The translations under genes and the position numbers were made by a program. From NCBI GenBank assembly GCA_965203805.1, contig OZ241917.1:1280001-1344000 (forward strand): a DNA stretch of 64,000 nucleotides, written 5' to 3'. The notes beneath the pieces are model-generated. The model searched no databases. It saw only the letters and a program-made list of their open reading frames with translations, and was not told the DNA's origin. Positions 28,921 to 62,013 of the stretch are shown here, one piece after another. The first letter of the stretch is position 1; each line of letters begins with the position of its first letter. The stretch comes from Candidatus Latescibacterota bacterium. GTDB taxonomy: Bacteria; Latescibacterota; UBA2968; GCA-2709665.

Positions 28921-28947
28921 CCTGCCTGCCGAGTCGGCGCAGGCAGG
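28921..28947. repeat. CCTGCCTG hairpin mini-insertion 1 (27 bp)
   Basis: CCTGCCTGCCGAGTCGGCGCAGGCAGG; removal restores GNGRRPIG. Confidence 0.92.
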
Positions 28948-29057
28948 TCGTCCGATCGGTGCGGAGGTGATGCTGCGTATCTACTTTATGCAACAATGGT
29001 ATGGATTGAGCGATCCGGGAATGGAAGACAGTCTCTACGACGTGGAGTCGATGCGTC

Positions 29058-29076
29058 CCTGCCTGCTGCAGGCAGG
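29058..29076. repeat. CCTGCCTG hairpin mini-insertion 2 (19 bp)
   Basis: CCTGCCTGCTGCAGGCAGG; removal restores SMRRFAG and the reading frame. Confidence 0.92.
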
Positions 29077-29612
29077 GCTTTGCGGGTGTGAACATCAACG
29101 GCGTACCTGATGAGACGACGATCTGCAAATTCCGTCACTTTCTGGAGCACCATGGGTTGACGGAAGCGTTGTTTCGGCAAACGAAGCGCTACTTGTCCAG
29201 GCGGGGATTGATCGTGAACGAAGGCACGATCGTGGATGCCACGATCATTCACGCGCCTTCTTCGACGAAGAACAAGGATCGGAAACGGGATCCTGAAATG
29301 GCCAGCACGAAGAAGGGCAACACGTGGCATTTCGGCATGAAGGCGCACGTGGGCGCGGATGTGAAGGGACGGGTGCACAGTGTGGTGACCACCCCCGCTT
29401 CGGTGCATGATTCGCAGGCGATGGATGCCTGTCTGCACGGAAAAGAAAAGACCATCTACGGCGACAAGGCCTATGCGGATCAGACGCGAAAAGAACGGGC
29501 CGAAGCCAACGACGTGGAATGGCGAGTGCTTCGCAAGGCCCGCCGGGGCAAGCGGCTCAACTGCGCGGATGTTTCGTTCAACAAGAAGAGCAATCGCACG
29601 CGCGCACGGGTC

Positions 29613-29648
29613 CCTGCCTGTGCGTGCTGTCTCACGCACGCAGACAGG
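29613..29648. repeat. CCTGCCTG hairpin mini-insertion 3 (36 bp)
   Basis: CCTGCCTGTGCGTGCTGTCTCACGCACGCAGACAGG; removal restores RARVEHPF. Confidence 0.92.
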
Positions 29649-29981
29649 GAACATCCCTTTGGGATCATCAAACACCTGTGGGGCTACCGAAAGGTCAGGT
29701 ATCGCGGTCTGGCGAAGAATACGGCGCATCTGTTCACCTTGTTTGCCTTGGCTAACTTCCATATGGCACGTCAGGAACTGGCTACTACATAGGCACCCGT
29801 GCCTCCAATTCGGACGCTGGCGGCCAAAATGGCCGGCACCGAGCGCATCCGGGGCCGGAATCACCCGTGCAAACCCGAAAGATGACGACCCTCTCAACAT
29901 AAACAGCCTCCGAAACGACCCATAAGTTACAACTTGCTCATTCCCTCTGGTTGATCAGAGGTTCCCTCATCGGTCAAAAAC

Positions 29982-30311
29982 TTAATCGTTGCCATGTTGG
30001 GTCGAGTCTTGGATCTTTTGGGAAATCTTCGAAGAAAACTTCTGACGCAAGGAATCTACAAATGCTCGACTCTCCTCAAGCGATCGGTCAATCTCATTCT
30101 GATGATCGAAATAGTAAGCCAGTGCTGCGTATACATCCGCCAGGGAAATGTCGTAATCACTGGCGATTTCGTCGGCGCTCTTGCCCAGGCGCTCGTGCCA
30201 GATGACGATATTCTCGACGGCAATTCGACGACCGACAATGCGCGGTTTGCCACCTGAAATGCCCGGGGTGATCTCAATATGTTGATTCAGGGTTTCCGTT
30301 GTCATTTCCAT
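29982..30311 (-). CDS. DUF433 domain antitoxin
   Basis: IEITPGISGGKPRIVGRRIAV...ADVYAALAYY; upstream of DUF5615. Confidence 0.93.
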   Translation of the reverse strand: MEMTTETLNQHIEITPGISGGKPRIVGRRIAVENIVIWHERLGKSADEIASDYDISLADVYAALAYYFDHQNEIDRSLEESRAFVDSLRQKFSSKISQKIQDSTQHGND

Positions 30312-30420
30312 CTCCTCCTGAGTTCAGCGACCGTCACGGAGCCCTCACGTTCATCGCCGACATCAAAGAAGAACCGGGGTCGGGGCGTCGCCCGCCCTTG
30401 CGCGTCAGTTTCCCTTCGGT

Positions 30421-30636
30421 TCAGCCGTCGGGACTGTCTGTTGCCCTGTTCTCATTCGATTTGCGTATTCGCGCGGCCATTGCTTCCAGCACAGGGTCGG
30501 AATACCGCCTGGAATTGAACCACTCTATCCGTTCGTCAGCAGTCATATCGGCGGTTTCGGCCGTAATGCGGGCGCGGGCCTGGCGCATGAATTTGACACA
30601 GTCGAAATTCTTCTTGTGGCGGGGGCTTTCAGACAT
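30421..30636 (-). CDS. Small FDC-motif protein (putative antitoxin)
   Basis: KKNFDCVKFMRQARARITAETADMT...YSDPVLEAMAARIR. Confidence 0.7.
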   Translation of the reverse strand: MSESPRHKKNFDCVKFMRQARARITAETADMTADERIEWFNSRRYSDPVLEAMAARIRKSNENRATDSPDG

Positions 30637-30900
30637 GGACGATTTTCTCATGGGCTCGATTGTCGATCGTGGCGTATCCATTGACGCCATTGCAGAGCAC
30701 GATGCGCATGAATCCTTCTATGCGGGAAAAGGCTTTAGGTCGGGGATCATGGAGTTACCCATAGAGAGTATCTCGTACTTCGCGATTGAATAAACCAAAA
30801 AGACCCGCAACGTCGGCAATGATTCAGTCAAGCGTCCCGACTCGCTCGTCCCGATGCCTCGGTACGGTCTCGCCGTGCCGGCTGCTTGTCAAGCCATTGA

Positions 30901-31104
30901 TCAGGGTTCATTCTCTTTGTCTTTTTCCGATTCGCGCAATGGCGCCGCCAGTCGTTCCAGAACAGGATCTTCATAGCGATACGTGCGATAGTACTGGATT
31001 CGCTCTGCAGGGCTCATGCCGGCTGTTTCTGCGGCAATCCTCGCACGAACCTCACGCACAAAGCGGATGCAGTCGAACCTCTCGGTTGCGGTATCATTTG
31101 TCAT
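30901..31104 (-). CDS. Small FDC-motif protein (putative antitoxin of the HsdM-fused PIN)
   Basis: RFDCIRFVREVRARIAAETAGMSPAER; overlaps hsdM-PIN stop. Confidence 0.7.
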   Translation of the reverse strand: MTNDTATERFDCIRFVREVRARIAAETAGMSPAERIQYYRTYRYEDPVLERLAAPLRESEKDKENEP

Positions 31105-33538
31105 AGCTGATCGCCTCCGGGGATAGGACGTTCAATTCCTCGTACCCCATTTGCCGGTTGACTGCGTTGTACAACCGGTTTCGTCGCCAGTTCACCATGT
31201 GCCTGAAATTCCAGCTTGCCAAAACGTCGGCCTCAGCCAGGGTTGCCAGGGCGATATGCTCCGCGTCGGCGCGGTTCGCAAGGCCGAGAGCCCCGGAACC
31301 AATGTATGCGTCCGCAAGCCGTTCTGCCTCATCTGTGAGAAAGAGCATCTCTTTGTTCGCAGCGGGAATCTGATCGATCACATTGCGCACGCTTTCCGGT
31401 GCCCCCGCCAGTTCCCTGAGAATGACTTCTGAATAAACGAGGATAGCATCTCCGTGCTTGAACTTATCAAACAACTCCATGGATGCCTCACGGACCTCAT
31501 CGTCCAGACATCCGCCGATCACCGAGGTGTCCACGTAGATGCGCGGCTTGCCGTACACAGCCGGCGGTTCCCGCACCATCGGCAGGTCGCCGAGTAACCC
31601 CTCGGTCTCTTTCTCCAGCGCTCTGATATCCACCCCGATCTCCTCCAACGTCCGCATCGGCTGGGGTTTGTAGAAGTACCGCGTGAAGCTGATTTCATAG
31701 CCGATCCTGACACTGTCGGGTCGGTACCAGGCGTCAGGCGCGTAGGGCAGGACCTCCCGCTGCAGGAACGCTTCGATGCCGCCCTCCTCTTGCAGCGGAA
31801 TCTGCTCTGTGTCGCGCAGGTCGGTGTCCGGTTCGTACTCGACCACGGCAGTCTTGCCGTTGACGGTAGCCTCAAAACGTCCACGTAGCGGGTCGGCTTC
31901 CGTGCCCTTTCTGTGGATCTTCTTGATAACGGGCGGCGCGGCTTCGCTACGCTCGCCGGTTTCCTTCATCTTCTTGATTTCGGCGGCCTTATAGGCACGG
32001 TTTGGGTCAATCCCTTCGATTCGAAGCGTGCGTTCGACGGCCACCTTCCAGTAGCCGAAGGCGGCGTTGTCGAAGATCTTGCTCTGCTCGCTCTCCTCGA
32101 AGGCCAGGAACGCGTCGCAGATCCGCCGGATGTCCTCTTCGCCAAGTTCGCAGTTTTTCTTGCCCAGGTTCTTGCGCAACGGCTTGTACCACTCGGTGGC
32201 ATCGATCAACTGCACCTTGCCCCGACGATGCTCCGGTTTTCGGTTGGTGATCACCCACACGTAGGTGGCGATGCCGGTATTGTAGAACATGTTGAGCGGC
32301 AGCGCGACGATCGCCTCCAGCCAGTCGTTTTCGATGATCCAGCGGCGGATGTTGCTCTCGCCCTGGCCGGCGTCGCCGGTGAACAGGGAACTGCCGTTGT
32401 GTACCTCGGCGATGTGACTGCCGCCCTCCTTCATCTTGGATAGTTTATTGGCGAGGAAGAGCATCTGCCCGTCGCTGGACCGGGTAACGAGTGAATATTC
32501 GGGATCGTCGGCGTGCTCAATCACGAAGCGCGGGTCCCGCATTTCCTTTTTGCCACCCATGCGCTCCAGATCGGTCTTCCAGCTCTTCCCATAGGGCGGA
32601 TTGGAGAGCATGAAGTCGAACTCGCGGGACGGGAAGGCGTCGTTTGCCAGGGTGGAATGCTCCGGGCCACCTACGATGTTATCGGCCGCGTCTCCTTCAC
32701 CCTTCAGCAGCAGGTCGGCCTTGCAGATGGCATAGGTCTCAGCATTGATCTCCTGGCCATACAGATGAGTGGAGACGTCTTTGTCGCGCTCGGCGGCGAG
32801 TTGCTGGAGCACGTCTTCTGCCACGGTCAACATCCCACCCGTGCCGCATGCGCCGTCGTAGATCAGGTACGTGCTGGATGTAATCTCGTCAGCGACGGGC
32901 AGAAAGACCAGCTTCGCCATCAACGTGACCGCGTCGCGCGGGGTCCAGTGCTCGCCCGCTTCTTCGTTGTTCTCCTCGTTGAAGCGCCGGATCAATTCCT
33001 CGAAGATCGTGCCCATGCCATGGTTGTCCAGGCCGGCGTGCCTGACCGTTCCGTCGGCGTTGTGCACCGGGTCCGGGCTCAGGTTGATGTCCGGCGACGT
33101 CAGCTTTTCGATCAGCGTGCCGAGGGCATCGGCCCTGGAAAGCCGCTGGATCTGGTTACGAAACTCGAAGTTTTCAAGGATGTCCTGGACGCTGGGCGAG
33201 AACCCGTCGAGCCAGGCCCTGAAATCGGCCTCGAGCTGCTGGCGATTGGCGCGGGCGCGCAGGTCGCGAAGGGTGAATTTCGACGTATTGTAGAAGGCCT
33301 GTCCTGCGACTTGCCGCAGGGTCGCCTCCTGCTCGACAACGCCGGCCTTGTCAAGGTTGGCCTTCATGTCCAAAACCGCCTGCTTGCTGTCTTCCAGCAC
33401 CGCGTCCAGCCGGCGCAGTACGGTCATCGGCAGAATCACGTCACGATACTTTCCGCGCACGTACAGATCGCGCAGAACGTCGTCGGCAATTACCCAGATG
33501 TAGTTGGCAATCCAGTTCAGGTCTGCGTTGGTTGTCAT
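31094..33538 (-). CDS. hsdM: Type I R-M methyltransferase subunit with C-terminal PIN domain
   Basis: EAGEHWTPR, YDGACGTGGML, NPPYG (N6-MTase); after IGYEISFTRYFY it continues in frame into IYVDTSVIGG...DAEHIALA...SWNFRHMVN (PIN). Confidence 0.95.
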   Translation of the reverse strand: MTTNADLNWIANYIWVIADDVLRDLYVRGKYRDVILPMTVLRRLDAVLEDSKQAVLDMKANLDKAGVVEQEATLRQVAGQAFYNTSKFTLRDLRARANRQQLEADFRAWLDGFSPSVQDILENFEFRNQIQRLSRADALGTLIEKLTSPDINLSPDPVHNADGTVRHAGLDNHGMGTIFEELIRRFNEENNEEAGEHWTPRDAVTLMAKLVFLPVADEITSSTYLIYDGACGTGGMLTVAEDVLQQLAAERDKDVSTHLYGQEINAETYAICKADLLLKGEGDAADNIVGGPEHSTLANDAFPSREFDFMLSNPPYGKSWKTDLERMGGKKEMRDPRFVIEHADDPEYSLVTRSSDGQMLFLANKLSKMKEGGSHIAEVHNGSSLFTGDAGQGESNIRRWIIENDWLEAIVALPLNMFYNTGIATYVWVITNRKPEHRRGKVQLIDATEWYKPLRKNLGKKNCELGEEDIRRICDAFLAFEESEQSKIFDNAAFGYWKVAVERTLRIEGIDPNRAYKAAEIKKMKETGERSEAAPPVIKKIHRKGTEADPLRGRFEATVNGKTAVVEYEPDTDLRDTEQIPLQEEGGIEAFLQREVLPYAPDAWYRPDSVRIGYEISFTRYFYKPQPMRTLEEIGVDIRALEKETEGLLGDLPMVREPPAVYGKPRIYVDTSVIGGCLDDEVREASMELFDKFKHGDAILVYSEVILRELAGAPESVRNVIDQIPAANKEMLFLTDEAERLADAYIGSGALGLANRADAEHIALATLAEADVLASWNFRHMVNWRRNRLYNAVNRQMGYEELNVLSPEAISYDK

Positions 33539-33777
33539 CGGAATTCCTTGCAGGTGCGCCCGGCCGGTCGCCCCTGCGGGTGATCAAGGCACCCGCTTCG
33601 CCTTTGCTCTAAAGAGATAAAGGCGAATCACCCGTGGCGAGTCGCCTTCCTCGAAGATGGCTTCCTCTACCCTCACCCCCGGTTCCCTACTCCCCCTGCG
33701 GACGAGAACTGTTCCCCCTCGATGAATCTGGAGGGGCGGAACGGGTGCAGATCAGGCTTCCCGGCCGTGGACCGGCT

Positions 33778-34575
33778 TCATCGCAAACTCTGAGTCTCTC
33801 CGCTGATAAAAGCGATAAACTCGTCCGGCCTCGACCAGCGAGACACCATAGACAGCGGCTCAACCAACCGAAAATCCTCATCTGCCCAGACGTCGGCAGT
33901 ATCATCGAACAAGGAAACGAAGGTCAGTGCCTCGGGCCCTGATGCAAGGTGATTCAGATCGTGCCAGGCGGCCAACACGTGCTCGGAAACTCTATGTGCT
34001 GCAGCACGATTCCCGGTGCTCAACACCTGTACAAGCGAACTCCTGAACTCCGCCCGGACGTGGAAATCGACCGTCCAGCCGCGCCCGGATCGGCCGGCAA
34101 GCCTTTCGGAACGCTCGTAACCCAGCTCCCGCTCTGAGAGGATATCCGCAACTTCGTCCGTAACGGATTGCACGGACTGTGTTCGAAACGTGAACCACAA
34201 ATCGGATACCCGAAGCGCCGCCTGAGCTACACGCGTTACAACATTCGCCAACTGATCACCAGGTCGACACCGGGCTTGAAGCATGCCGCGATAGAACTCT
34301 ATCCCATGGGTCAAACACGCATCTTCTATGAGCCGTCTCTGCTTCGGGGAACGACGAAGAGTCGACGACTGCATTCGGAGCCAACCGGTGGTCTCCGCAA
34401 GGTCGGTTATCGTCAACGAATTGTTGGAGACCTTACAGAAGAGGTCGATATTGTCGCCATCCGGATAGAGATATGGCGTACGAATTCGGTGAAATTCACC
34501 TTGTTCCGAGCACGTGAACAAGACGCCGATCTCCCGTTCCAATTTCTGACACAGATCCTTGCTGTCCATTACCAC
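33778..34575 (-). CDS. DUF1828/DUF1829 domain protein
   Basis: IRTPYLYPDGDNIDLF...ITDLAET; GRSGRGWTVDF nuclease-like C-terminus. Confidence 0.75.
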   Translation of the reverse strand: MVMDSKDLCQKLEREIGVLFTCSEQGEFHRIRTPYLYPDGDNIDLFCKVSNNSLTITDLAETTGWLRMQSSTLRRSPKQRRLIEDACLTHGIEFYRGMLQARCRPGDQLANVVTRVAQAALRVSDLWFTFRTQSVQSVTDEVADILSERELGYERSERLAGRSGRGWTVDFHVRAEFRSSLVQVLSTGNRAAAHRVSEHVLAAWHDLNHLASGPEALTFVSLFDDTADVWADEDFRLVEPLSMVSRWSRPDEFIAFISGETQSLR

Positions 34576-35024
34576 AGTTTTCCTTGAATAGCAGGCGGTC
34601 TACTCATCACGCCATCGTGTCGAATGCCTGCTTCAATGCAGAACTCCTGCCAAACCGACGCGGGATCCGAAACAAGCGCTTTAACGTCGTGCGGTACATA
34701 TGCTTCTTTATCACTGTAACGTTCTGACCACCTATGCTTGTGCTTTTCCCCAACCTGTTCACATTGCGGATTGTGATGATCCTTTCCGAGGTCAAGACCA
34801 TAGATGCGGCCCACGGTCGTCAGAATTAGCGCGTAGGTCAGCGTACCTGCGAGCGAATTGAAACGTCCCTTGACGAACAGCGGCCAACCACTCTCCGACG
34901 TGACGTTGACGTGGAATTCAAATGCAGGGGAGTGATCCTCGTCCTCAATCCAGTTAACGTCACCATCAATCCGCTTCGTGTCGTCATTCAGGATTGAGGT
35001 AAATTCGCCATCGGACAAGGGCAT
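34569..35024 (-). CDS. DUF6978-like protein
   Basis: LDL...HHNP...V.EKHKHRW.E...KEAY; coupled to DUF1828 gene. Confidence 0.65.
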   Translation of the reverse strand: MPLSDGEFTSILNDDTKRIDGDVNWIEDEDHSPAFEFHVNVTSESGWPLFVKGRFNSLAGTLTYALILTTVGRIYGLDLGKDHHNPQCEQVGEKHKHRWSERYSDKEAYVPHDVKALVSDPASVWQEFCIEAGIRHDGVMSRPPAIQGKLW

Positions 35025-35328
35025 TTCGGTACTCCGGATGTTCAGCTCATGGTTTTACCGGAGCAGCACAGTTGCACAACTGCTCCATTATCCAGTACGA
35101 GCATTTCGGAACACCTGCGGCAGTTTTCTCAATATACGAAATTTGGTGTCTAATGGAGTAGCGATTTCGGAATTTGACGCGACGGTCGGGCACAAATGGG
35201 GCTCGCACCTATGGTTCCCAGGAACACTCCAACCGCGTTTACCCTTCCTCTAACGAAACAAAGGCGAATCGCCCGTTGGGCGCCGCCATTGATCGCCTCG
35301 CCTACTCCAGAGTCAAGTCCCTCTTCTC

Positions 35329-36504: not shown

Positions 36505-36564
36505 TGCTCCCGCGCGACGCTTTCAAGACCGGCCCAAAATGCCAGCCAAACCCGGCGACACCGG

Positions 36565-36966: not shown

Positions 36967-37011
36967 CGTGCACCTCCGGACCCGTTGTCGTTTATGAAAT
37001 TCGAGACGTCG

Positions 37012-54395: not shown

Positions 54396-55081
54396 TCGAC
54401 GTACAACGCGAAGATCTCGGACAAGGACTTCCCGTGGTCCCGTTGCAGCTGACTCGAACTGCCCGACGCGGGAATCTCTCCGCGGTGGAGAAAAACCACA
54501 TCCTCGAGATAGGGCTCGACTTCCGATACGAGATGCGTCGAAATCAGAATCGTCTGGTCCTCCCGGCGGAACTCGTTGAAGAGACTTTCCAGAATGCGTC
54601 TCCGCGACGGGGGGTCGATACCCCCCAGAGGCTCATCCATCAGCACCACTTCAGGGGACCACGAGAATGCAGAAACCACCTTCAGCCTTGCACGCTGCCC
54701 GCGTGAAAGGGCGCCCACCTTCCGGTCTTTCGGCAGATTCATGAATTCGAGCAGTTGTTCGGCCTTCCGTGCGTCCCACGTGGCATGGAAGGCCGAAAGG
54801 AAATTCAGCTGTTCGTCGACCTTCATCCAGGAATAAAACGGATCGATCTCGGGAAGATAGGACACCCTGCGCTTCGTGGCGAACCCCGCCGGGATTTGCC
54901 CGATCCGCGCCTGTCCCCGGGTAGGACGCGTCACACCCGCGAGAATCCGGAACAGCGTACTCTTTCCGCTTCCGTTTTCTCCGAGTACGCCCAGCACCCC
55001 GCCGCGCGCCACCGTCAATGAAACACCCCTGAGCGCCCATACGCCGGGATATCTCTTCCAGAGGTCTACGACGTCGATCAT
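54392..55081 (-). CDS. ABC transporter ATP-binding protein
   Basis: GENGSGKST, LSRGQ, LMDEPLGGID, ISTH. Confidence 0.95.
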   Translation of the reverse strand: MIDVVDLWKRYPGVWALRGVSLTVARGGVLGVLGENGSGKSTLFRILAGVTRPTRGQARIGQIPAGFATKRRVSYLPEIDPFYSWMKVDEQLNFLSAFHATWDARKAEQLLEFMNLPKDRKVGALSRGQRARLKVVSAFSWSPEVVLMDEPLGGIDPPSRRRILESLFNEFRREDQTILISTHLVSEVEPYLEDVVFLHRGEIPASGSSSQLQRDHGKSLSEIFALYVD

Positions 55082-55174
55082 CGGTGCACATCCCCGGTAT
55101 AGAAAAAGGCCGCCCCGGTACCCATTCCAGAAGCGGCCGTATTCAGATCGCCACCTGACTCACGCCAGCGGGAT

Positions 55175-55654
55175 TCAGCGCATATCGCGATCGATGAGAA
55201 ACAGCCCGTATCGATCGTCGCCTACAAGCTCCAGCTTTTTCACGATGGCGCGAAGCCGGGCCTCTTCCTCCACCTGTTCGTTGACGAACCACTGCAGAAA
55301 CGTGTTGGTCGCGTGGGCGCGGTTCTTCATTGCCAGATCGACCAGATTGTCGATCCGTCCGCTGGCTTCCTGTTCCCGCCGGTATGCCGCCGAAATCGCG
55401 TCCAGGGGTGAACCCCAATCCGCCGGGGGTTCTGGAATGGGTTTGAACCCGACCGGCGCCTCCCTTTCGTGCAGGAATTCGTAGATCTTCATCGCGTGCG
55501 TCATCTCTCGCTGTGCCTGCTTGCCCATCCACCTGGCAAATCCATTCAGATTGACCGACTTGAAATAGGAGGACATGGCCAGGTAGGTATACCAGGCGAG
55601 GAATTCGCTGTTGATCTGCTCGTTCAGCGCTGACTGAATCTCCTTACTAAACAT
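55175..55654 (-). CDS. ftnA: Ferritin
   Basis: LNEQINSEF...YLAMS, HAMK, FLQWFVNEQVEEE. Confidence 0.93.
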   Translation of the reverse strand: MFSKEIQSALNEQINSEFLAWYTYLAMSSYFKSVNLNGFARWMGKQAQREMTHAMKIYEFLHEREAPVGFKPIPEPPADWGSPLDAISAAYRREQEASGRIDNLVDLAMKNRAHATNTFLQWFVNEQVEEEARLRAIVKKLELVGDDRYGLFLIDRDMR

Positions 55655-55711
55655 CTGCGCCCCCTGAGGGTTTCCTGAATGACGACATGCGATCCCCTGT
55701 GGCTGCGACGA

Positions 55712-56065
55712 TTAATGGGGCGCCGGGACCTTGCAGCATCCCGGCAGACTCGCGTACGCTGTGCTGTCGGCAGGGGCCTGATTCGCCTGATAACCGGCCG
55801 CGGCGATGGCCTGTTCCATCGTTGCCGTATCGGTGCGCTTCGCGTCGTACGTTACGCTAACAACCTTGACATCCATATCGACGTTCACCTCTGTCACGCC
55901 GTCAACCTTCTTCAAGGCCTTGTCAATGTTGTTTGCGCACATCATGCACTGCGCCGTGGGCACGTTGATTTTTGCCGTACGGGTTTCCGCCGTGGAACAG
56001 GCGGTGACCGCGAGAGTGCCGAAAGCGAGCGCGCAGCTGAGCGCGAGAGACATGATCTTGCGCAT
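55712..56065 (-). CDS. Exported heavy-metal-associated (HMA) domain protein
   Basis: Signal/lipoprotein N-terminus, CMMC, AGY, LPGCCK. Confidence 0.88.
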   Translation of the reverse strand: MRKIMSLALSCALAFGTLAVTACSTAETRTAKINVPTAQCMMCANNIDKALKKVDGVTEVNVDMDVKVVSVTYDAKRTDTATMEQAIAAAGYQANQAPADSTAYASLPGCCKVPAPH

Positions 56066-56157
56066 GAATCAACCTCCTTGAGTTAAAAGGGAACGTTTGG
56101 CACATTCCCGAAATCTGACGTCCACAACTTCGAATATATGACAACACCCATCGATAA

Positions 56158-59100
56158 TCAACGCTCATCTTTCAACGATCGCCCTTTCCAGAATGCGTAT
56201 ACCGCGGGTATCACGATCAGCGTCAGCAGCGCGGACGAGGCGACACCCCCCACCATCGGCGCCGCGATGCGCTTCATGGTCTGCGACCCGATCCCATGCC
56301 CCCACATAATGGGCAGCAGCCCAAGCAGCGTTGTCAGCACCGTCATCATCTTCGGCCTGACCCGTTCGACGGCGCCGGCGACAACCGCCCTCCGGAGGTC
56401 CGCGGCGTTCATATCACCTCCCCGCGCCGCGCGAATGCGATCGTACGCCTGATCCAGATAGACCAGCATAACCACGCCGGTTTCCGCCGCGAGGCCGCCG
56501 AGCGCGATGAAGCCGACGCCCACCGCAACGCTCATGTTGTAGTCCAGCAGGTACATCAGCCAGATGCCGCCCACCATCGCGAACGGAAGGGACAGCATGA
56601 CGATAAGGCTTTCCTGCACGTTCCTGAAATTGAGATACAACAACAGGAAGATGATTCCAAGCGTGAGCGGCACCACCAGCTTCAGGCGCTTTTCCGCCCG
56701 CAGCATGTACTCATACTGACCGCTCCAGGAAACCGAATAGCCCGGCGGCATGGGCACCTTCTCCAGCACCGTCTGTTGCGCGCGTTTCACGTAGGTTCCG
56801 ACGTCGATGCCCTGGATATCCACGTACACCCAGGCGTTCGGACGGGCGTTCTCGCTCTTGATCCCCGGCGGGCCCTTTCTGATGCGGATATCGGCAAGTT
56901 GCGCGATCGGGATCTGGGCGCCGGTGGGCGTGGGAACCAGCACGCGACGGAGCGCGGGCAGGTTGTCCCGCAATTCTCTATCGTACCGGAGATTTACGGG
57001 ATAGCGTTCCAGCCCCTCCACGGTTGTGGTGATGTTCTTCCCCCCCATCGCGAACATAATCACGTCCTGGACGTCGCCAACGGTGAGCCCGAAACGCGCG
57101 GCAGCCTCGCGGTCGATGTCGAAATCCAGGTAGTTGCCGCCGACGGCCCGTTCCGCGAACACGCTCAGGGTACCCGGCAGGTCGCGAATCACCGTCTCGA
57201 TCCGTTCCCCCAGACGCTGCAGCACCTCCAGATCTTCACCCGCGATCTTGATGCCCACCGGCGTCTTGATCCCCGTGGACAGCATATCGATGCGTGTCTT
57301 GATCGGCATCGTCCACGAATTGGTCAGGCCGGGAAACTGGATCGCCTCATTCAACCGCCCGATCAACTTTTCGGGCGTCATTCCGGGGCGCCATTCGCGC
57401 TCCGGCTTCAGCGTTATCGTCGTTTCTATCATGGCCAGCGGCGCCGGGTCGGTCGCGGTTTCAGCCCGTCCAATCTTTCCGAATACGTCCTGTACCTCGG
57501 GAAAAGCCTTGATGATCTTATCGGTCTGCTGAAGCAATTCGCGCGCCCTTGTCACCGATACCCCCGGCAGGGTGGTTGGCATATAGAGCAGGTCCCCCTC
57601 ATAGAGCGGCGGCATGAATTCGGACCCGATCCGCTGCAGCGGGAACAGCCGGTCCAATCTCACCAGGGCCCGGTACGCGAGGCTTTGCGGCGCGTCGGAA
57701 AACCTGTCGAGCACCAGGCTGCGGAATGGAAAGAGCGTAACCAGAAGAACGGCCGCCGCCATTACCAGTGTTGCAGCCCGGTGATTCAGGACCCACGCAA
57801 TCACCGGGCGATACATCCAGATGAAGAACCTGCTGCTGGGATTGCGCGCTTCGGGACGGATCTTTCCCCGGACGAAAACACTCACCAGCACGGGTACGAT
57901 CGTGATCGCCAGCAGGGCCGCCGCACCCATCGCGTAGGTCTTGGTATAGGCCAGCGGTTTGAACAGCCGGCCCTCCTGCTCCTGCAGGGCAAAGACGGGA
58001 AGAAAGGAAACCGTAATCATCAGCAGCGAGTAAAACAGCGCCGGGCCGATCTCTTTCGATGCGTCGACGATGATCTCCAGATGCCCCTTCCTGCCGTTGT
58101 TCTGTTCCAGGTGTTTGTGAGCATTCTCGATCATCACGATCGACGCGTCGACCATGGCCCCGATAGCGACCGCAATTCCCCCGAGCGACATGATATTGGA
58201 GTTCAGCCCCTGGGTGTGCATCACGCCGAACGAGATCAGTACGCCCGCAGACAGCGCGAATACCGCGACAAACGCGCTGCGGAAGTGCAGGAGAAATACG
58301 ACGCAGACCAGCGCCACGACCGTCATTTCCTCGATCAGTTTGGTTCGCAGGTTGTCGATGGCGTCGCGAATCAACGCCGACCGGTCGTAGGCCGTCCGAA
58401 TTGAAACGCCCTCGGGCAGACCCGGCTTGAGCGAGTCGATCTTCTCTTTTACCCGATCGATCACGGCAAGGGCGTTTTCGCCGTAGCGCATGACGACGAT
58501 TCCGCCCACGACCTCACCCTCTCCGTTCCATTCGGCAAGCCCGCGGCGCAGCTCCGGACCCAGCCGCACGGTGGCGACGTCTCCAACCCTGACGGGCGTT
58601 CCCCCGGCATCCACCCCGACCGCGATGTTCCGGATGTCGTCGATCGAGCGGATATAACCGAGTCCGCGCACCATGAACTCGGTTTCTCCGAACTCCACGG
58701 TCCGCCCGCCCACGTCATTGTTGCTCCGCCGAATCGCCGAACTCACCTTTTGCAGCGGAATATTGTATGCCAGCAGACGGTTCGGGTCCACGGTGACCTG
58801 GTACTGTTTAACGTACCCCCCCACGGCCGCCACCTCGGCCACGCCCGGGACGCTACTGAGTTCGTAACGCAGGTACCAGTCCTGGATGGATCGCAATTCC
58901 GCCAGATCGCGACGTCCCGTACGGTCCTCCAGCACGTATTCGTACACCCATCCTACCCCGGTCGCATCCGGGCCGAGCCGGGGCGCGACGCCGCGGGGCA
59001 ATCGATTCGACACGGTGTTGAGCGATTCCAGAACCCGGCTTCTCGCCCAGTACATGTCCGTGCCATCCTCGAAGATCACGTAGACGAACGACAGACCGAA

Positions 59101-59361
59101 GAAGGAAAACCCACGCACGGCCTTCGCGTAGGGCACCGCCAGCATCGCCGACGTGAGCGGATACGTGACCTGGTCCTCCACCACCCGCGGCGCCTGCCCG
59201 GGGTATTCGGTCAGAACGATGACCTGAACGTCCGACAGATCCGGGATCGCGTCCAGCGGCGTATTCAGCATCGCATAGACGCCCCAGGCGATCGCAAACA
59301 CGGTGGCTGCCGCGATCAGAAACCGGTTCCGAAGACTGAGCTCAATGACTCGACCGATCAT
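56158..59361 (-). CDS. cusA: CusA/CzcA family heavy-metal RND efflux pump
   Basis: DAIPDLSDVQVI, GPDATGVGWVY, MLSTGIKTPVGIK, RVRPKMMT. Confidence 0.96.
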   Translation of the reverse strand: MIGRVIELSLRNRFLIAAATVFAIAWGVYAMLNTPLDAIPDLSDVQVIVLTEYPGQAPRVVEDQVTYPLTSAMLAVPYAKAVRGFSFFGLSFVYVIFEDGTDMYWARSRVLESLNTVSNRLPRGVAPRLGPDATGVGWVYEYVLEDRTGRRDLAELRSIQDWYLRYELSSVPGVAEVAAVGGYVKQYQVTVDPNRLLAYNIPLQKVSSAIRRSNNDVGGRTVEFGETEFMVRGLGYIRSIDDIRNIAVGVDAGGTPVRVGDVATVRLGPELRRGLAEWNGEGEVVGGIVVMRYGENALAVIDRVKEKIDSLKPGLPEGVSIRTAYDRSALIRDAIDNLRTKLIEEMTVVALVCVVFLLHFRSAFVAVFALSAGVLISFGVMHTQGLNSNIMSLGGIAVAIGAMVDASIVMIENAHKHLEQNNGRKGHLEIIVDASKEIGPALFYSLLMITVSFLPVFALQEQEGRLFKPLAYTKTYAMGAAALLAITIVPVLVSVFVRGKIRPEARNPSSRFFIWMYRPVIAWVLNHRAATLVMAAAVLLVTLFPFRSLVLDRFSDAPQSLAYRALVRLDRLFPLQRIGSEFMPPLYEGDLLYMPTTLPGVSVTRARELLQQTDKIIKAFPEVQDVFGKIGRAETATDPAPLAMIETTITLKPEREWRPGMTPEKLIGRLNEAIQFPGLTNSWTMPIKTRIDMLSTGIKTPVGIKIAGEDLEVLQRLGERIETVIRDLPGTLSVFAERAVGGNYLDFDIDREAAARFGLTVGDVQDVIMFAMGGKNITTTVEGLERYPVNLRYDRELRDNLPALRRVLVPTPTGAQIPIAQLADIRIRKGPPGIKSENARPNAWVYVDIQGIDVGTYVKRAQQTVLEKVPMPPGYSVSWSGQYEYMLRAEKRLKLVVPLTLGIIFLLLYLNFRNVQESLIVMLSLPFAMVGGIWLMYLLDYNMSVAVGVGFIALGGLAAETGVVMLVYLDQAYDRIRAARGGDMNAADLRRAVVAGAVERVRPKMMTVLTTLLGLLPIMWGHGIGSQTMKRIAAPMVGGVASSALLTLIVIPAVYAFWKGRSLKDER

Positions 59362-60029
59362 ACGTTGGACTCCTGGTATTCTGTCCCATAAATGGAATGA
59401 ATGGATCCGAACCGGGACCTTAATTCGACAAAAGCAGCGACGCGGCGCCGCGACAGAACCTCCCGAAACGGGCCGAAAAGGTCGTCCGGATGGACATTTT
59501 TCCGTTCACGTCAAGTGACCTGACGTGTCATAGAAATCAGCAGTTAAATCGCCTTTATTCACTTGCACATATTCGAATTAACGTCCCCGAATAAGTAGAG
59601 TCGGGATGTGGCGCGGTAGTTTAGGAGTGGCCTATCCGTTTCCGCCCCTTTCGTCTGGCGGTGCCTCAATAGCCCCTCCGTGCCCCGTTTCCACATCCCG
59701 CTCGTCGAACCGGACGTGCGGTTTTCCCGCATCCGGCTCTCCGACGGACGTCGCCTTCAGGCACACGCTGACCGCGCTGCCCGGACAGCTTCACCTGAAG
59801 CCCAAGCTTGTTCTGGAGTCGCCTCGTCTACTTTTGGAGGAGGTTATAGGCTTGCGCCACTCTCCCGACCGTTGTCCCCTTCACAAGCACATCCGAAGTC
59901 AGGCCCCTTCCCTCCACCGGCGTTACCCGGCTTCACGGGTACTACGAGCCTGTCCGCCACCCCATGCGGCCCGGCCTGTCCCTCACGGGCGTCCGGTTGG
60001 TGTCCCTGCACCACCGCTGGGGCTTCCCG

Positions 60030-60062
60030 CCTGCCTGCCGAGCAGGACTCGGCGCAGGCAGG
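60030..60062. repeat. CCTGCCTG hairpin mini-insertion 4 (33 bp)
   Basis: CCTGCCTGCCGAGCAGGACTCGGCGCAGGCAGG splitting intron motif GGGCTTCCCG|TGTTGCG. Confidence 0.88.
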
Positions 60063-60108
60063 TGTTGCGTCGGATCTCCTTGTATACGTGCCTCCGCCAT
60101 TTCCCCGG

Positions 60109-60135
60109 CCTGCCTGCGTCCCTCGGACAGGCAGG
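60109..60135. repeat. CCTGCCTG hairpin mini-insertion 5 (27 bp)
   Basis: CCTGCCTGCGTCCCTCGGACAGGCAGG splitting CCCCGG|CGGGACCG. Confidence 0.85.
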
Positions 60136-60426
60136 CGGGACCGCTGGATGCTCGCGTTGCTGTCTTTTTCCAGCGACGGCGGCCTTCCCCGATCGTCAGA
60201 CGGGTCGGCTCCCGCATTACCCTTTTCGAGGCCTGCTCAGCGTTCACTGCACGTTTCGGCCCGCATACTCGCCGAGTCGCCTTGCGACCCTCTACACCGG
60301 AGGCTTCAGAGATTTCGTTGCCTACGTCCCTGCTCCGATTGCTACCGACTGAAGCAACCCTTGTCGGGTTGGGACTCTCACCCACTGAAGATCCGCGCCT
60401 TTTCACGGCGCACTGACGAATCAAGG

Positions 60427-61710
60427 TTAATGTTGATGACCCTTCGACCCGACCGCCCCGTGATGTTCGCCCATGGTGCCCAGCGCCGCCTTGAGATTGC
60501 TCTCCGAGTCGATCAGGAACTGCGATGAAACGACAATCCGCTCGTCTCCCCGCAGCCCTGCGGTCACCTCGTGGACCTCGCCTGTTTCGACACCCAGCGT
60601 CACCTCACGCGGCGCGAATCGACCCTCGCCAAGGTCCAGAATCACCACGTTTCTTTCGCCGGACCGGATCACCGCCTGGGAGGGAACCACCACGGCCTCC
60701 TTCGTAACCTCCGACCGGATCCTTACCGTGGCGAACATCTCCGGCTTCAGGTCCAGTTCGGGGTTGTCGAATACCATCCTGACTTTCGCGGTTCGAGTCT
60801 TCGATTCAAGGAAAGGATAGATGTAGGTCACCACACCATCGAACACCCGCCCTGGCGCGTAGGACAGTTCGACCTCGGCCGCCTGCCCCTCCTTAATCCA
60901 GGGCAACTCGTACTCGTAGATGTCGGCAACTACCCAGACCCGGGAAAGATCGGCGATGCGATAGAGATGCTCTCCGGCCCTGATATACGCCCCGTCGAAT
61001 ACCGCTCGATGCACCACCACGCCCTCCTGGGGGGAGTGTATCGTCATCGTTCGCTTTGTCTGCCGCGTCTTTTCCAGATCGGCGATCTGATCTTCCATTA
61101 TATCCCAGTAGATCAGGCGCTGCCTGGCCGCGCTCAGGAGCGCCTGTGCGCCCTTTAAGGCTTCCGCCGAAGCATTCTGTTCGAGGCGCCGAACGTAGTC
61201 CAGCGCCGTCAGATACTCTTCTTGCGCGGCGACCAGTTCGGGACTGTAGATCTGCAGCAGGGGCTGACCCTTCTTCACCTCCTGCCCGGTGAAGTCGACG
61301 AACAGCCCCTCCACCCATCCGGTCACCTTCGTGTTGACTTCCGTCATCCGGGTCTCGTCGTAATCGACGCGGCCCATCGCACGAACGGTCCGGCTCAACG
61401 CCCGCCGTTCCACACCGGCAGTTCTGACGCCCATATTCTGTACGGTCGTCGGATTGATCCTGACCTCCGAAGCGTCTTCGTCGTGGTCGCCTTCGTGCCC
61501 CGATCGTCCCGGCTGATCCGGCACAAGGTCCATGCCGCAGACGGGACAGCTCGCCGGCCTTTCCGACACGACCGTGGGGTGCATCGGGCACCGGTAGACG
61601 GACGGTCCGGAATCGTGAGACTCCGACGCTTCCTCCCCGCCCAGCCAGACTCCGGCGACAAATCCGACGCCCAGGGCCAGAACAACCACAACAATCGTCT
61701 TTGGATTCAT
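60427..61710 (-). CDS. cusB: CusB-like RND periplasmic adaptor with heavy-metal-binding domain
   Basis: YRCPMHP..CPVCGMDL, YSPELVAAQEEYL, LKPEMFA, SQFLIDSESNL. Confidence 0.92.
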   Translation of the reverse strand: MNPKTIVVVVLALGVGFVAGVWLGGEEASESHDSGPSVYRCPMHPTVVSERPASCPVCGMDLVPDQPGRSGHEGDHDEDASEVRINPTTVQNMGVRTAGVERRALSRTVRAMGRVDYDETRMTEVNTKVTGWVEGLFVDFTGQEVKKGQPLLQIYSPELVAAQEEYLTALDYVRRLEQNASAEALKGAQALLSAARQRLIYWDIMEDQIADLEKTRQTKRTMTIHSPQEGVVVHRAVFDGAYIRAGEHLYRIADLSRVWVVADIYEYELPWIKEGQAAEVELSYAPGRVFDGVVTYIYPFLESKTRTAKVRMVFDNPELDLKPEMFATVRIRSEVTKEAVVVPSQAVIRSGERNVVILDLGEGRFAPREVTLGVETGEVHEVTAGLRGDERIVVSSQFLIDSESNLKAALGTMGEHHGAVGSKGHQH

Positions 61711-61763
61711 AACGCGACCTCTCTCTTCTTCGCCGTGCGCAGGCACGGTCTTCAAACGGCTTT

Positions 61764-62013
61764 TGGTGTCCGGTCCCAAAAATACCTCACCATTCTTCCG
61801 CCTGCCTGCGCAGTGCCCTGCCTGCCTGTGCGTGTACGCACGCAGACAGGCGCTGCAGGCAGGCCGATTCATCCCGTCTCGCAGCGTTGCCTTCGCTGGC
61901 CGACCTGGCCAGGTCGCCTGCGCTCTGGCGCTGGGTCCAGAGCCTGTCGAAGGATGCGAGCCGGGCGACTCGACGGCCGAATTCAGGCGACTTATTTTCG
62001 GGACAGAACACTA
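61764..62013. mobile_element. ~250 bp MITE at the TolC stop codon
   Basis: Imperfect TIRs TGGTGTCCGGTCCCAAAAATA / TATTTTCGGGACAGAACACTA; internal palindromes. Confidence 0.7.
61801..61863. repeat. Nested CCTGCCTG mini-insertions 6 and 7 (33-bp outer, 30-bp inner at 61821-61850)
   Basis: CCTGCCTGCGCAGTGCCCTG[CCTGCCTGTGCGTGTACGCACGCAGACAGG]CGCTGCAGGCAGG. Confidence 0.88.

What the first reader, a model, noticed from the sequence alone, without database searches (positions are those of the whole stretch)
28921..61863. Family of 19-36 bp CCTGCCTG...CAG(G/A)CAGG hairpin insertions found only inside other mobile elements
Seen: seven copies at 28921, 29058, 29613, 60030, 60109, 61801 and 61821. They share fixed 8-bp termini around variable self-complementary cores. 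There are two subtypes, with CAGGCAGG ends or with CCTGCCTGTGCGTG...ACGCACGCAGACAGG. All lie in an IS5 transposase, a group II intron or a MITE; I found none in ~55 kb of host genes. Reconstructable empty sites show no target duplication. Inference: this is an ultra-minimal non-autonomous element mobilised in trans, for example by an HUH/RAYT- or GIY-YIG-type enzyme, none of which is encoded here. It may target or silence mobile DNA, or it may only be tolerated there. I recall similar palindromes translating as LPAGRQ/PACRQAG in metagenomic proteins, but cannot verify that or name a mechanism.
Basis: partly seen in the sequence, partly recalled or inferred. Interest (0 to 1): 0.9.

Follow-up and report, generated by a model that had tools for sequence, protein, structure and literature searches.

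The report
Tiny mobile DNA hairpins, 19-37 bp
The window holds seven copies of a real family of very small (19-37 bp) DNA hairpins that get inserted precisely into other DNA, a family that turns out to be present in many bacterial phyla and whose moving enzyme is still unknown.

Summary
All seven copies are at the stated places (0 expected by chance). The genome holds about 262 such hairpins, nested up to three deep. Paralogues, relatives and contigs from other samples show empty sites. Each insertion is exactly CCTG...CAGG, without target duplication, at a purine^pyrimidine step (G^C here).

"Only inside mobile elements" holds for the window but not for the genome. Of 226 sites, 169 are intergenic, mostly inside other small repeats. 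A few lie in-frame in host genes. Host genes are strongly depleted. Transposase genes, a group II intron and REP-like repeats carry many copies.

The minimal 19-mer occurs with identical sequence in at least 15 phyla. One gammaproteobacterial genome has 606 copies, and several of its insertion-sequence families are riddled with frameshifting copies.

Two RAYT genes exist in this genome, but their own REPs are a different family. Two hairpin-rich genomes have no Y1 transposase, so the mobilising enzyme is unidentified. I read this as a new superfamily of ultra-small, non-autonomous, REP-like elements, probably moved as folded single strands. It accumulates where insertions are tolerated. Deliberate targeting of mobile DNA is not shown.

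The parts
28921..28947 (.). 27-bp hairpin element inside the IS5 transposase gene (in-frame)
   Evidence: Regex hit. Folds at -10.4 kcal/mol. Absent as a clean 27-bp gap from IS5 homologues of G007, G002 and G013, and left out in contigs of X4 and X5.
29058..29076 (.). Minimal 19-bp hairpin element inside the IS5 transposase gene. It shifts the reading frame.
   Evidence: Clean 19-bp gap in G007, G002 and G013. Left out in the X4 contig but kept in the X5 contig. The same 19-mer occurs in many phyla.
29613..29648 (.). 36-bp hairpin element (CAGACAGG subtype) inside the IS5 transposase gene (in-frame)
   Evidence: Clean 36-bp gap in G002, G013 and G003. An identical 36-mer sits at the same site in G007, whose IS5 is only 82% identical. 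Skipped in contigs of X4, X5 and X6.
28656..29965 (+). Host element: IS5-family insertion sequence, 1310 bp. One of five 99.8-100% identical copies, all carrying the three hairpins.
   Evidence: 5 copies, each with its own 4-bp flanking duplication. DDE_Tnp_1. Absent from this locus in X4, X5 and X6 contigs (joint 28650->29966).
60030..60062 (.). 33-bp hairpin element inside a group II intron
   Evidence: Three empty paralogous intron copies.
60109..60135 (.). 27-bp hairpin element inside the same group II intron
   Evidence: One empty paralogous copy. The same 27-mer also sits at an unrelated site in a 3-copy transposase gene.
59595..60387 (-). Host element: ORF-less group II intron (domains 1-4 and 5-6), about 6 copies in the genome
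   Evidence: Rfam RF02003 at 60249-60387 and RF00029 at 59595-59741, both on the minus strand. Copies listed.
61801..61863 (.). Compound locus: a 33-bp outer hairpin element (61801-61820 plus 61851-61863) interrupted by the inner element
   Evidence: Sequence. The uninterrupted 33-mer occurs at 17 other loci. Eighteen empty copies of the surrounding short repeat.
61821..61850 (.). 30-bp inner hairpin element (CAGACAGG subtype) nested in the outer one
   Evidence: Thirty-six copies of the outer element or its relatives lack this insert. Iterative excision reveals 30+5 further outer elements genome-wide.

Best explanation
These are copies of a genuine, currently or recently active family of ultra-small (19-37 bp) non-autonomous insertion elements.

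Anatomy. Each element is one hairpin. An invariant 8-bp stem, CCTG(C/T)CTG...CAG(G/A)CAGG, forms the two ends. It encloses a variable, usually self-complementary core that defines subfamilies.

Shown. The elements are inserted exactly, end to end, without target duplication. The target is a purine^pyrimidine step: G^C in this GC-rich genome, and G^C, A^T, G^T or A^C in G031. The left junction, the right junction and the joined ends are therefore all R^Y too. The elements nest inside each other. The same subfamily sits at unrelated sites, and different subfamilies sit at the same site. Nearly identical IS copies in different samples carry 0, 1 or 3 of them. They are rare in host genes, where interior copies are in-frame. 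They are common in intergenic DNA, in small REP-like repeats, in transposase genes and in a group II intron. The minimal 19-mer is found with identical sequence in many phyla.

Inferred. A trans-acting, sequence-specific strand transferase recognises the folded (CCTG)2/(CAGG)2 stem. It cuts at its base and moves the hairpin as a single strand into R^Y steps of exposed single-stranded DNA. This is formally like HUH/Y1 enzymes (IS200/IS605, RAYT), but the enzyme is not identified. The distribution is mostly explained by where insertions are tolerated, not by deliberate aiming at mobile DNA.
For: Reality and abundance:
- 7 copies in the window against 0 in shuffles.
- 277 regex hits in 231 loci genome-wide. 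Eight unrelated palindromic 8-mer pairs gave 0-4 hits and the reversed genome gave 2.
- Iterative excision gives 227+30+5 = 262 elements.

Precise insertion:
- 92 of 231 loci have ungapped empty paralogues.
- Orthologous IS5 copies show exact gaps.
- Contigs of other samples lack exactly 27, 19 and 36 bp at more than 99% flank identity.

Target:
- G^C at 52 of 93 collapsed sites against 8.5% background; -1 G in 66 of 93 and +1 C in 66 of 93.
- In G031, R^Y at 146 of 203 independent sites.

Copying of whole elements:
- Identical asymmetric cores at unrelated sites.
- Subfamily-specific T.G / C.A asymmetry in the stem.

Distribution:
- 57 of 226 sites lie in predicted genes although 81% of the genome is coding.
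- Independent sites per 100 kb: 0.31, 3.2, 9.4 and 15.7.
- 52 of 81 independent sites lie in repeated DNA against 29 of 400 random G^C sites.
- G031 repeats the pattern: 1.4, 23, 16.5 and 46.

Spread:
- 18 of 31 related genomes have the family, with counts from 0 to 190 within one genus.
- At least 120 stretches from many phyla hold the 19-mer; my arithmetic expects about 4-5 by chance.
- 606, 65, 52, 35 and 13 copies in five unrelated genomes, with 0 for the reversed pattern.

Hint of strand-specific insertion:
- In G031 the central base of the 19-mer is T on the + strand at 51 of 87 independent sites left of dnaA.
- It is T at 10 of 33 sites right of dnaA (Fisher p = 0.008).
Against: No enzyme is tied to the family.
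- RAYT1 of this genome and its 5 orthologues are flanked by GAGGGCA(N3-4)TGCCCTC REPs, not by these hairpins. The single hairpin beside RAYT1 is an insertion into one of those REPs.
- G031 (606 copies, closed chromosome) and G032 (35 copies) have no Y1_Tnp match. G017 has 13 RAYT-like matches and no hairpin.
- The -1 preference is only R. No tetranucleotide target of the IS200/IS605 kind is seen.

The replication-strand signal is modest (about 60-70%). I had seen the bins before I chose the dnaA boundary, and GC skew puts the switch elsewhere (p = 0.03 at that boundary). In G000 the numbers were too small to say anything.

Target flanks in G000 are not notably hairpin-like: a stem of 5 or more in 11% against 5.7% of controls.

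All five IS5 copies here carry the frameshifting 19-mer. All 8 full copies of an IS481-like element in G031 carry 4-6 frameshifting 19-mers. A simple 'dead on arrival' view does not explain how those IS copies multiplied.
Confidence: 0.6

Rival explanations
1. Ordinary REP/RAYT system: the hairpins are REPs of one of the genome's two RAYT transposases and are moved by it.
For: Two genes pass NCBIfam's REP-associated tyrosine transposase cut-off (104 and 91 bits, cut-off 80). Each has a hairpin within about 300 bp in G000. Size, hairpin shape, copy number and mostly intergenic position resemble REPs. REPs inside palindromes and inside ORFs are described for GTAG/CGTC REPs (passages of PMC3733652).
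Against: RAYT1 is flanked by a different, well-defined REP (GAGGGCA...TGCCCTC) in 6 of 6 loci examined, and 0 of 5 orthologous loci hold a CCTG hairpin. The hairpins next to both RAYTs are insertions into those REPs. There is no GTAG/CGTC-type tag. G031 (606 copies) and G032 (35) have no Y1_Tnp hit. G015 has 140 hairpins but only a 47-bit RAYT-like match, and G017 has 13 matches and 0 hairpins.
Confidence: 0.12
2. A dedicated system aims the hairpins at mobile DNA and so silences transposases. It might be reversible by precise excision.
For: In G000, 64% of independent sites (52 of 81) lie in repeated DNA against 7% of random G^C sites (29 of 400). Transposase genes are 3 times denser than unique intergenic DNA. 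In G031 an IS481-like element carries 4-6 frameshifting 19-mers in all 8 full copies, and IS630-, IS5-, IS110- and ISAs1-like genes are also interrupted. The same site is filled in diverged IS5 copies (G000 and G007). The patterns abdef / abcdef / cdef among IS copies need recurrent gain or precise loss.
Against: Most sites are intergenic, not in IS. In G031, repeated genes (16.5 per 100 kb) are less dense than unique intergenic DNA (23.1). Every hairpin-bearing IS family in G000 also has hairpin-free sub-lineages; for example 4 of 8 and 7 of 9 copies are clean. No associated gene was found. Depletion from host genes is what purifying selection alone predicts.
Confidence: 0.12
3. DUF559 (Vsr-like PD-(D/E)XK) nucleases, which sit among hairpin-bearing repeats, are the mobilising enzymes.
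For: Within the window's family of genomes, strong stand-alone DUF559 matches occur in all 11 genomes with 8 or more hairpins. They occur in none of the 7 genomes with 3 or fewer, apart from one fragmented 80%-complete genome. In G016, hairpins lie within about 50-180 bp of 4 of 5 DUF559 matches. In G000 one DUF559 gene is bracketed by two hairpin-bearing repeats.
Against: G031 (606 hairpins) and G035 (65) have no DUF559 match. G019, G020 and G024 have DUF559 with 0-1 hairpins, and G021 has 19 hairpins without it. The adjacency is explained by the hairpins inserting into the DUF559 element's own flanking palindrome (...GAGGGGGAGTCG^CAGAAGCC...), which is also hit where no DUF559 is near. The kin are not independent.
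Confidence: 0.07
4. The hairpins are not copied as units. They are filler or footprints: either excision scars or internal-deletion derivatives of a DDE transposon with CCTGCCTG ends (a MITE), or sequence synthesised onto both ends of a double-strand break and annealed.
For: The ends are 8-bp inverted repeats. The minimal form is just two 9-nt arms around one base. Insertion without duplication fits a blunt break.
Against: No long or multi-copy element with these ends exists in G000. The 722 solo 8-mers are in the range of control 8-mers, and no repeated sequence follows them except known IS. Asymmetric cores with bulges recur identically at many unrelated sites, which needs copying of whole units. 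DDE transposition would leave target duplications.
Confidence: 0.06
5. Assembly or sequencing artefact, or host-encoded functional hairpins (for example terminators) that only look inserted.
For: Palindromes can be created by some library artefacts. Many copies lie between genes.
Against: The elements are present in closed and draft genomes from many laboratories and platforms, including cultured isolates. They are present in contigs of independent runs and absent from others at the same site. They are nested and occur inside coding sequence, so they are not positioned like terminators.
Confidence: 0.02

Closest known systems
REP / REPIN elements mobilised by RAYT (HUH Y1) transposases
   Same: Both are 20-40 bp imperfect palindromes present in hundreds of copies. 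Both are mostly intergenic, non-autonomous and presumably handled as folded single strands. Both can sit inside other palindromes and occasionally inside ORFs (passages of PMC3733652).
   Different: There is no GTAG/CGTC tag; instead both ends are the same 8-bp inverted repeat. The mobile unit is a single hairpin as small as 19 bp, not a REP doublet. It is not found flanking a RAYT as that RAYT's own REP. It is present in genomes without any Y1 transposase. The sequence is identical across phyla, whereas REPs are lineage-specific (that last point is recalled).
IS200/IS605 family and its non-autonomous derivatives (PATEs)
   Same: Insertion and excision without target duplication or footprint. 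Dependence on DNA hairpins. A possible bias with respect to the direction of replication.
   Different: Those elements have separate subterminal hairpins at each end. They insert 3' of a specific tetra- or pentanucleotide (recalled: TTAC for IS608). Here one hairpin is the whole element and the target is only R^Y.
Rickettsia palindromic elements (RPE) and REPs inside genes
   Same: Palindromic repeats found in-frame inside genes that probably still work. Here these are a GH20-like gene, an outer-membrane efflux gene and a methylase, all with lengths that are multiples of 3.
   Different: RPEs are about 100-150 bp and restricted to one genus (recalled). Here genic copies are rare exceptions, and many copies in transposase genes shift the frame.
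Mobile GC clusters and 'byp' elements of yeast mitochondria; the T4 gene 60 bypass element
   Same: Very short GC-rich hairpin insertions that invade coding sequence and other mobile elements; their mechanism of spread is poorly known (recalled; the T4 preprint was seen only in the listing).
   Different: Those are organellar or phage systems. Byps are skipped by ribosomes between matched take-off and landing codons. Here no duplication exists that could supply matched codons, and host genes are depleted of copies.
MITEs (for example Correia, Nezha)
   Same: Non-autonomous, with terminal inverted repeats and many copies.
   Different: MITEs are 70-300 bp, derive from a DDE insertion sequence and make target duplications. 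Here there is no duplication and no parent element.
IS1111/IS110-family elements that insert into REPs or transposon ends
   Same: A habit of landing inside other mobile or palindromic DNA without target duplication (recalled; PMC1525189 was seen only in the listing).
   Different: Those are 1.2-1.5 kb autonomous elements with a DEDD transposase. A 19-bp element cannot form the double-stranded circle they use.

Membership tests
REP (repetitive extragenic palindrome) with cognate RAYT | Short imperfect palindrome in high copy number | tested here: met
   262 elements of 19-45 bp. They fold as hairpins.
REP (repetitive extragenic palindrome) with cognate RAYT | Conserved tetranucleotide tag (GTAG or CGTC) at one end | tested here: not met
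   Both ends are CCTG(C/T)CTG / CAG(G/A)CAGG. 'CCTG' does not occur in the text of PMC3733652. Its supplementary lists could not be seen.
REP (repetitive extragenic palindrome) with cognate RAYT | A RAYT gene flanked by copies of the same REP (REPtron) | tested here: not met
   RAYT1 and its 5 orthologues are flanked by GAGGGCA(N3-4)TGCCCTC. None of the 5 orthologous loci holds a CCTG hairpin.
REP (repetitive extragenic palindrome) with cognate RAYT | Presence goes with a Y1 (RAYT) gene in the genome | tested here: not met
   G031 has 606 copies and 0 PF01797 hits. G032 has 35 copies and 0 hits. G017 has 13 RAYT-like hits and 0 hairpins.
IS200/IS605-type single-strand transposition (non-autonomous derivative) | No target duplication and precise boundaries | tested here: met
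   Empty sites in paralogues (92 of 231 loci), in relatives and in other samples.
IS200/IS605-type single-strand transposition (non-autonomous derivative) | Insertion 3' of a fixed tetra- or pentanucleotide | tested here: not met
   Only position -1 (purine) and +1 (pyrimidine) are constrained.
IS200/IS605-type single-strand transposition (non-autonomous derivative) | Orientation bias relative to replication (lagging-strand template) | tested here: inconclusive
   G031: T-centred on the + strand at 51 of 87 sites left of dnaA and 10 of 33 right of it, p = 0.008. The boundary was chosen after I had seen the bins, and GC skew disagrees. G000 was uninformative.
IS200/IS605-type single-strand transposition (non-autonomous derivative) | Catalysis by an HUH tyrosine enzyme | not testable with these tools
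   This needs biochemistry or genetics. No enzyme could be assigned.
MITE derived from a DDE insertion sequence | Terminal inverted repeats | tested here: met
   8-bp inverted ends.
MITE derived from a DDE insertion sequence | Target-site duplication | tested here: not met
   None at any reconstructed empty site.
MITE derived from a DDE insertion sequence | Parent element with the same ends | tested here: not met
   No repeated sequence follows solo termini in the cleaned G000 genome other than known IS. Other genomes were not searched for this.
Translational-bypass ('byp'-like) insertions | Matched take-off and landing codons, and tolerance inside essential genes | tested here: not met
   No duplicated flank exists. 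Unique genes hold 0.31 sites per 100 kb against 3.2 in unique intergenic DNA. Translation itself was not tested.

The most novel reading that the evidence does not exclude
The 19-bp CCTGCCTGC-N-GCAGGCAGG hairpin is the smallest mobile DNA element so far seen. It would be an inter-phylum 'hyperparasite' moved by a not-yet-recognised strand transferase that cuts at R^Y at the base of a folded (CCTG)2 stem. It would go in and out precisely, so that it works as a reversible off-switch on transposases and other mobile DNA. That would explain how IS copies full of frameshifting hairpins still multiply.
Probability: 0.25. Interest if true: 0.9.

Novelty: new variant of a known kind. Interest (0 to 1): 0.75.

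Why it matters
If this holds, bacteria of many phyla share a mobile element that is only one hairpin long. That is far below the size thought necessary for a transposable unit, and its sequence is conserved across phyla, unlike REPs.

It would point to an unrecognised DNA strand-transfer activity.

It would explain a class of odd peptide insertions and frameshifts in metagenomic gene calls: CCTGCCTG...CAGGCAGG read in frame gives strings such as LPA..., PAC..., ...RQAG.

It also gives annotators a simple rule: excise the hairpin to recover broken transposase and host genes.

The presence/absence differences between nearly identical IS copies in different samples make the element's mobility directly testable.

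Tried and rejected
Approaches that led nowhere or were rejected:

- Literature search for the motif: 43 papers hold the string, and all 20 listed are primer or CRISPR contexts. Three further searches and one on bypassing showed no description of this family in their listings. That is no proof it is unpublished. Subscription journals and supplementary files were not visible.
- Replichore orientation in G000: 1-10 independent sites per subfamily, so uninformative.
- The idea that targets are tips of other hairpins: suggested by eye in the cross-phylum flanks and in G031. In G000, flanks with a stem of 5 or more are 11% of 81 sites against 5.7% of 4050 controls. I did not run the statistic on the other genomes.
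- Search for an autonomous parent element: none.
- Genes bracketed by hairpins. In G000 there are 9, all ordinary host genes except one DUF559 gene. In G031, 50 gaps hold transposase fragments or host genes. No candidate enzyme emerged.
- Viral contigs: only 7 stretches, so no sign of a phage vehicle.
- RNA-level removal. The RNA contig of X6 lacks the 36-mer, but so does the DNA contig of the same sample (X4). There is therefore no evidence for it. Only contigs, not raw reads, were available, so minor alleles and excised forms cannot be seen.
- Translational bypass: considered and set aside because no matched flanking codons exist and host genes are depleted (inference).
- A resemblance of the ends to resolvase or relaxase cutting preferences that I recall: not tested and not used.
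- RAYT and DUF559 as drivers: see the rival explanations.

Full report
**1. Is it there?**

Reading the DNA shows six loci.
- Three lie in an IS5-family element: 28921-28947 (27 bp), 29058-29076 (19 bp) and 29613-29648 (36 bp).
- Two lie at 60030-60062 (33 bp) and 60109-60135 (27 bp).
- One is a compound locus at 61801-61863. A 30-bp element (61821-61850) sits inside a 33-bp element.

A relaxed scan (one mismatch per terminus) adds nothing in the window and finds 0 in the reversed window. All elements fold as DNA hairpins better than shuffles, with z-scores of -2.5 to -4.4.

- The IS5 element spans 28656-29965. It has a DDE_Tnp_1 domain and five copies, each with its own 4-bp target duplication.
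- An ORF-less group II intron lies on the minus strand (RF02003 and RF00029).
- A short dispersed repeat lies upstream of an efflux-pump gene, with 18 empty paralogues.

**2. How big is the family?**

The window lies in a closed 5.87-Mb genome of 59% G+C. The pattern occurs 277 times in 231 loci. Eight unrelated palindromic 8-mer pairs give 0-4 hits and the reversed genome gives 2.

Removing the innermost elements repeatedly uncovers further complete elements. The rounds give 227, then 30, then 5, for 262 in all, so elements are nested up to three deep. The commonest lengths are 33 (93), 31 (50), 30 (27), 27 (17), 36 (14), 19 (12) and 37 (11).

Subfamilies are defined by the core. The 8-bp ends are constant. 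Some subfamilies carry CCTGTCTG opposite CAGGCAGG, so one strand has a T.G pair where the other has a C.A mismatch. Identical asymmetric cores at many unrelated sites mean that whole elements are copied.

**3. Are they insertions?**

Yes, and exact ones.
- For 92 of 231 loci the joined flanks match another place in the genome without a gap.
- Excising 27, 19 and 36 bp restores the IS5 frame (...GNGR|RPI......SMR|RFAGV......RARV|EHPFG...).
- IS5 homologues of 77-83% identity in four relatives show clean gaps of those lengths. G007 is the exception: it has the identical 36-mer at the same site.
- Contigs from other samples add to this. A coral metagenome (X4) holds this IS5 at more than 99% identity with none of the three hairpins.
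- A sponge metagenome (X5) holds it with only the 19-mer.
- Run X1, which carries the IS5 with no differences and is probably the window's own source, holds all three.

The insertions are therefore young relative to the IS sequence and differ between populations. No site shows a target duplication.

**4. Target.**

I collapsed sites with similar flanks to 93. The junction is G^C in 52 (background 8.5%), with G at -1 in 66 and C at +1 in 66. In the 59%-G+C gammaproteobacterial genome G031, the junction is R^Y in 146 of 203 independent sites: GC 44, AT 41, GT 31, AC 30.

Because the element starts with C and ends with G, the left junction, the right junction and the joined ends are all R^Y as well. 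That is what a conservative cut-and-join reaction at one kind of step would leave (inference). Flanks in G000 are not notably palindromic.

Different subfamilies fill the same position in different copies of a repeat, and one subfamily fills unrelated positions.

**5. Where do they sit?**

I used a crude self-trained gene caller on the hairpin-free genome (3979 genes, 81% coding). Only 57 of 226 sites are in predicted genes. Of these, 33 are in multi-copy genes. The other 169 sites are intergenic: 83 in long repeats, 66 in short repeats and 20 unique.

The multi-copy genes are transposases: IS5, two IS1380-type families, a DUF772/IS5-type family and an rve/Mu-type family. Each family also has hairpin-free sub-lineages.

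In single-copy genes, several 'genic' sites are really upstream of the true start (for example a dnaE2-like gene) or lie in IS630-like remnants. The clear interior cases are all multiples of three: a GH20-like protein (33 bp), an outer-membrane efflux protein just after its signal peptide (45 bp) and a DUF1156 methylase (27 bp).

Independent sites per 100 kb:

| Class | Sites per 100 kb |
|---|---|
| Unique genes | 0.31 |
| Unique intergenic | 3.2 |
| Repeated genes | 9.4 |
| Repeated intergenic | 15.7 |

Sixty-four percent of independent sites (52 of 81) are in repeated DNA, against 7% (29 of 400) of random G^C sites. It is not a rule.

**6. Beyond this genome.**

Among 30 relatives, 17 have the family. 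Counts within one genus range from 0 to 190, and two other genera have 140 and 132.

My arithmetic for 596 Gb gives about 4-5 by chance. The record titles name Gammaproteobacteria, Latescibacterota, Bacteroidota (including cultured isolates), Ignavibacteria, Acidobacteriota, Brocadiaceae, Desulfobacteraceae, Dehalococcoidia, Bipolaricaulota, Elusimicrobiota, Armatimonadota, Peribacteria and others. The flanks are unrelated.

The Latescibacterota records share the window's subfamilies, so the window probably belongs to that phylum.

Whole-genome counts in five of these genomes are 606, 65, 52, 35 and 13, and the reversed pattern gives 0. Only 7 stretches were found in viral contigs.

**7. A second genome in detail.**

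I held 2.4 of the 3.66 Mb of G031. It has 413 elements, nearly all 19-mers. The distribution repeats:

| Class | Sites per 100 kb |
|---|---|
| Unique genes | 1.4 |
| Unique intergenic | 23 |
| Repeated genes | 16.5 |
| Repeated intergenic | 46 |

Transposase genes are thus not denser than intergenic DNA there, which favours tolerance over aiming.

The picture in IS elements is nevertheless striking. An IS481-like element has 8 full copies, each with 4-6 frameshifting 19-mers, all in one orientation. The presence patterns are abdef, abcdef and cdef. These cannot arise on a simple tree without recurrent gain, precise loss or conversion. No clean copy exists in that genome. Removing the hairpins in silico restores a 344-aa frame. 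IS630-, IS5-, IS110- and ISAs1-like genes are interrupted too.

**8. Who moves them?**

The genome has two RAYT genes.
- RAYT1 is flanked by arrays of a different palindrome, GAGGGCA(N3-4)TGCCCTC, here and in five orthologous loci. None of those five holds a CCTG hairpin. The hairpin beside RAYT1 is an insertion into one of these REPs.
- RAYT2 lies in-frame inside a methylase ORF, and its neighbouring hairpin again sits inside another palindrome.

RAYT-like matches do not track hairpin load. G031 and G032 have no Y1 transposase match at all.

DUF559 nuclease genes track hairpin load well within the window's family of genomes and often lie next to hairpins. They are, however, absent from G031 and G035 and present in hairpin-free genomes of the sister family. 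The adjacency is explained by the hairpins hitting the DUF559 element's own flanking palindrome.

No long element with these ends exists in G000. The enzyme is therefore unknown.

One hint favours a single-strand mechanism. In G031 the central base of the 19-mer is T on the + strand at 51 of 87 independent sites left of dnaA and at 10 of 33 right of it (p = 0.008). I had seen the bins before fixing the boundary, and the weak GC skew suggests another switch point (p = 0.03 there).

**9. What I conclude.**

Shown:
- A real, abundant, nested, precisely inserting hairpin family without target duplication.
- An R^Y target.
- Polymorphism between populations.
- Depletion from host genes.
- Spread over many phyla.

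Inferred:
- Movement in trans as a folded single strand by a sequence-specific strand transferase, HUH-like in logic but unidentified.
- Accumulation mainly where insertions are tolerated.

Unexplained:
- How IS copies carrying frameshifting hairpins multiplied. All five IS5 copies here do, and so do all eight IS481-like copies in G031. Trans-complementation, conversion between copies, very frequent re-insertion at hot spots, or reversible precise excision are all open.
- The RNA contig available lacks a hairpin only where the DNA of the same sample lacks it too.

**10. Known or new?**

The closest known things are REPs/REPINs with RAYTs, IS200/IS605 derivatives, Rickettsia RPEs, mitochondrial GC clusters and MITEs.

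The family fails the defining tests of REP/RAYT (tag, cognate RAYT, dependence on Y1). It fails those of MITEs (target duplication, parent element) and those of IS200/IS605 (fixed target word, two end hairpins).

My searches and the passages read in PMC3733652 show no description of it.

I file it as a new variant, a new superfamily, of small palindromic non-autonomous elements. The mechanism may prove new.

Noticed in passing
G000:C1:4546977-4550684 (locus L002); not in the window: A RAYT (Y1 transposase) domain lies in-frame inside a DUF1156/N6-adenine methylase ORF of about 1250 aa. The same arrangement appears as long open frames (1203-1441 aa) in G008, G011 (twice) and G016. It therefore looks like a conserved domain insertion rather than an accident.
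   Followed up: partly
G000:C1:4532300-4535500 (locus L001/L009): A classical REPtron. RAYT1 (201 aa) is flanked by arrays of GAGGGCA(N3-4)TGCCCTC palindromes in alternating orientation. The same holds in five orthologous loci of relatives.
   Followed up: partly
G000:C1:3336199-3336513 and four other loci; G016 locus L184: Small DUF559 (Vsr-like nuclease) genes sit between composite repeats. In some genomes they lie in-frame inside larger ORFs (open frames of 687-802 aa in G016), flanked by a ...CCCCCTTGAGGGGGAGTCG... palindrome. They look like a separate small mobile module.
   Followed up: partly
G000:C1:3.24-3.47 Mb: A roughly 230-kb region holds about a quarter of all hairpin loci (bins of 34, 13, 10 and so on per 100 kb). 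It also holds composite repeats with up to about 38 copies. The 31-bp subfamily there flips orientation near 3.33 Mb and again near 3.46 Mb. The nature of the region was not examined.
   Followed up: no
window 28650-29966: The IS5 copy itself is absent from this locus in contigs of two other DNA samples and one RNA sample (joint 28650->29966). It is a strain-specific, recent insertion.
   Followed up: yes
window 27361-27657, 27727-27963, 30421-30690, 30901-31104 (all minus strand): Four paralogous small ORFs (67-98 aa) share a ...FDC[VI]xFxRxxRxRIxAExAxM... motif. They lie on both sides of the IS5 and of a small gene pair. The family was not identified.
   Followed up: no
G031 (loci L197-L330): This genome is full of other REP-like palindromes (for example ...cattcccgc...gggaatg... 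and ...ggattccggc...gccggaatgac...). Yet it has no Y1/RAYT match, so its ordinary-looking REPs also lack a visible transposase.
   Followed up: no
G000:C1:1260706-1264494 (locus L187): A 30-bp hairpin lies just upstream of the probable start of a dnaE2-like error-prone polymerase gene. PMC3733652 remarks that REPs often lie in DnaE2 and repair genes (passage seen).
   Followed up: no
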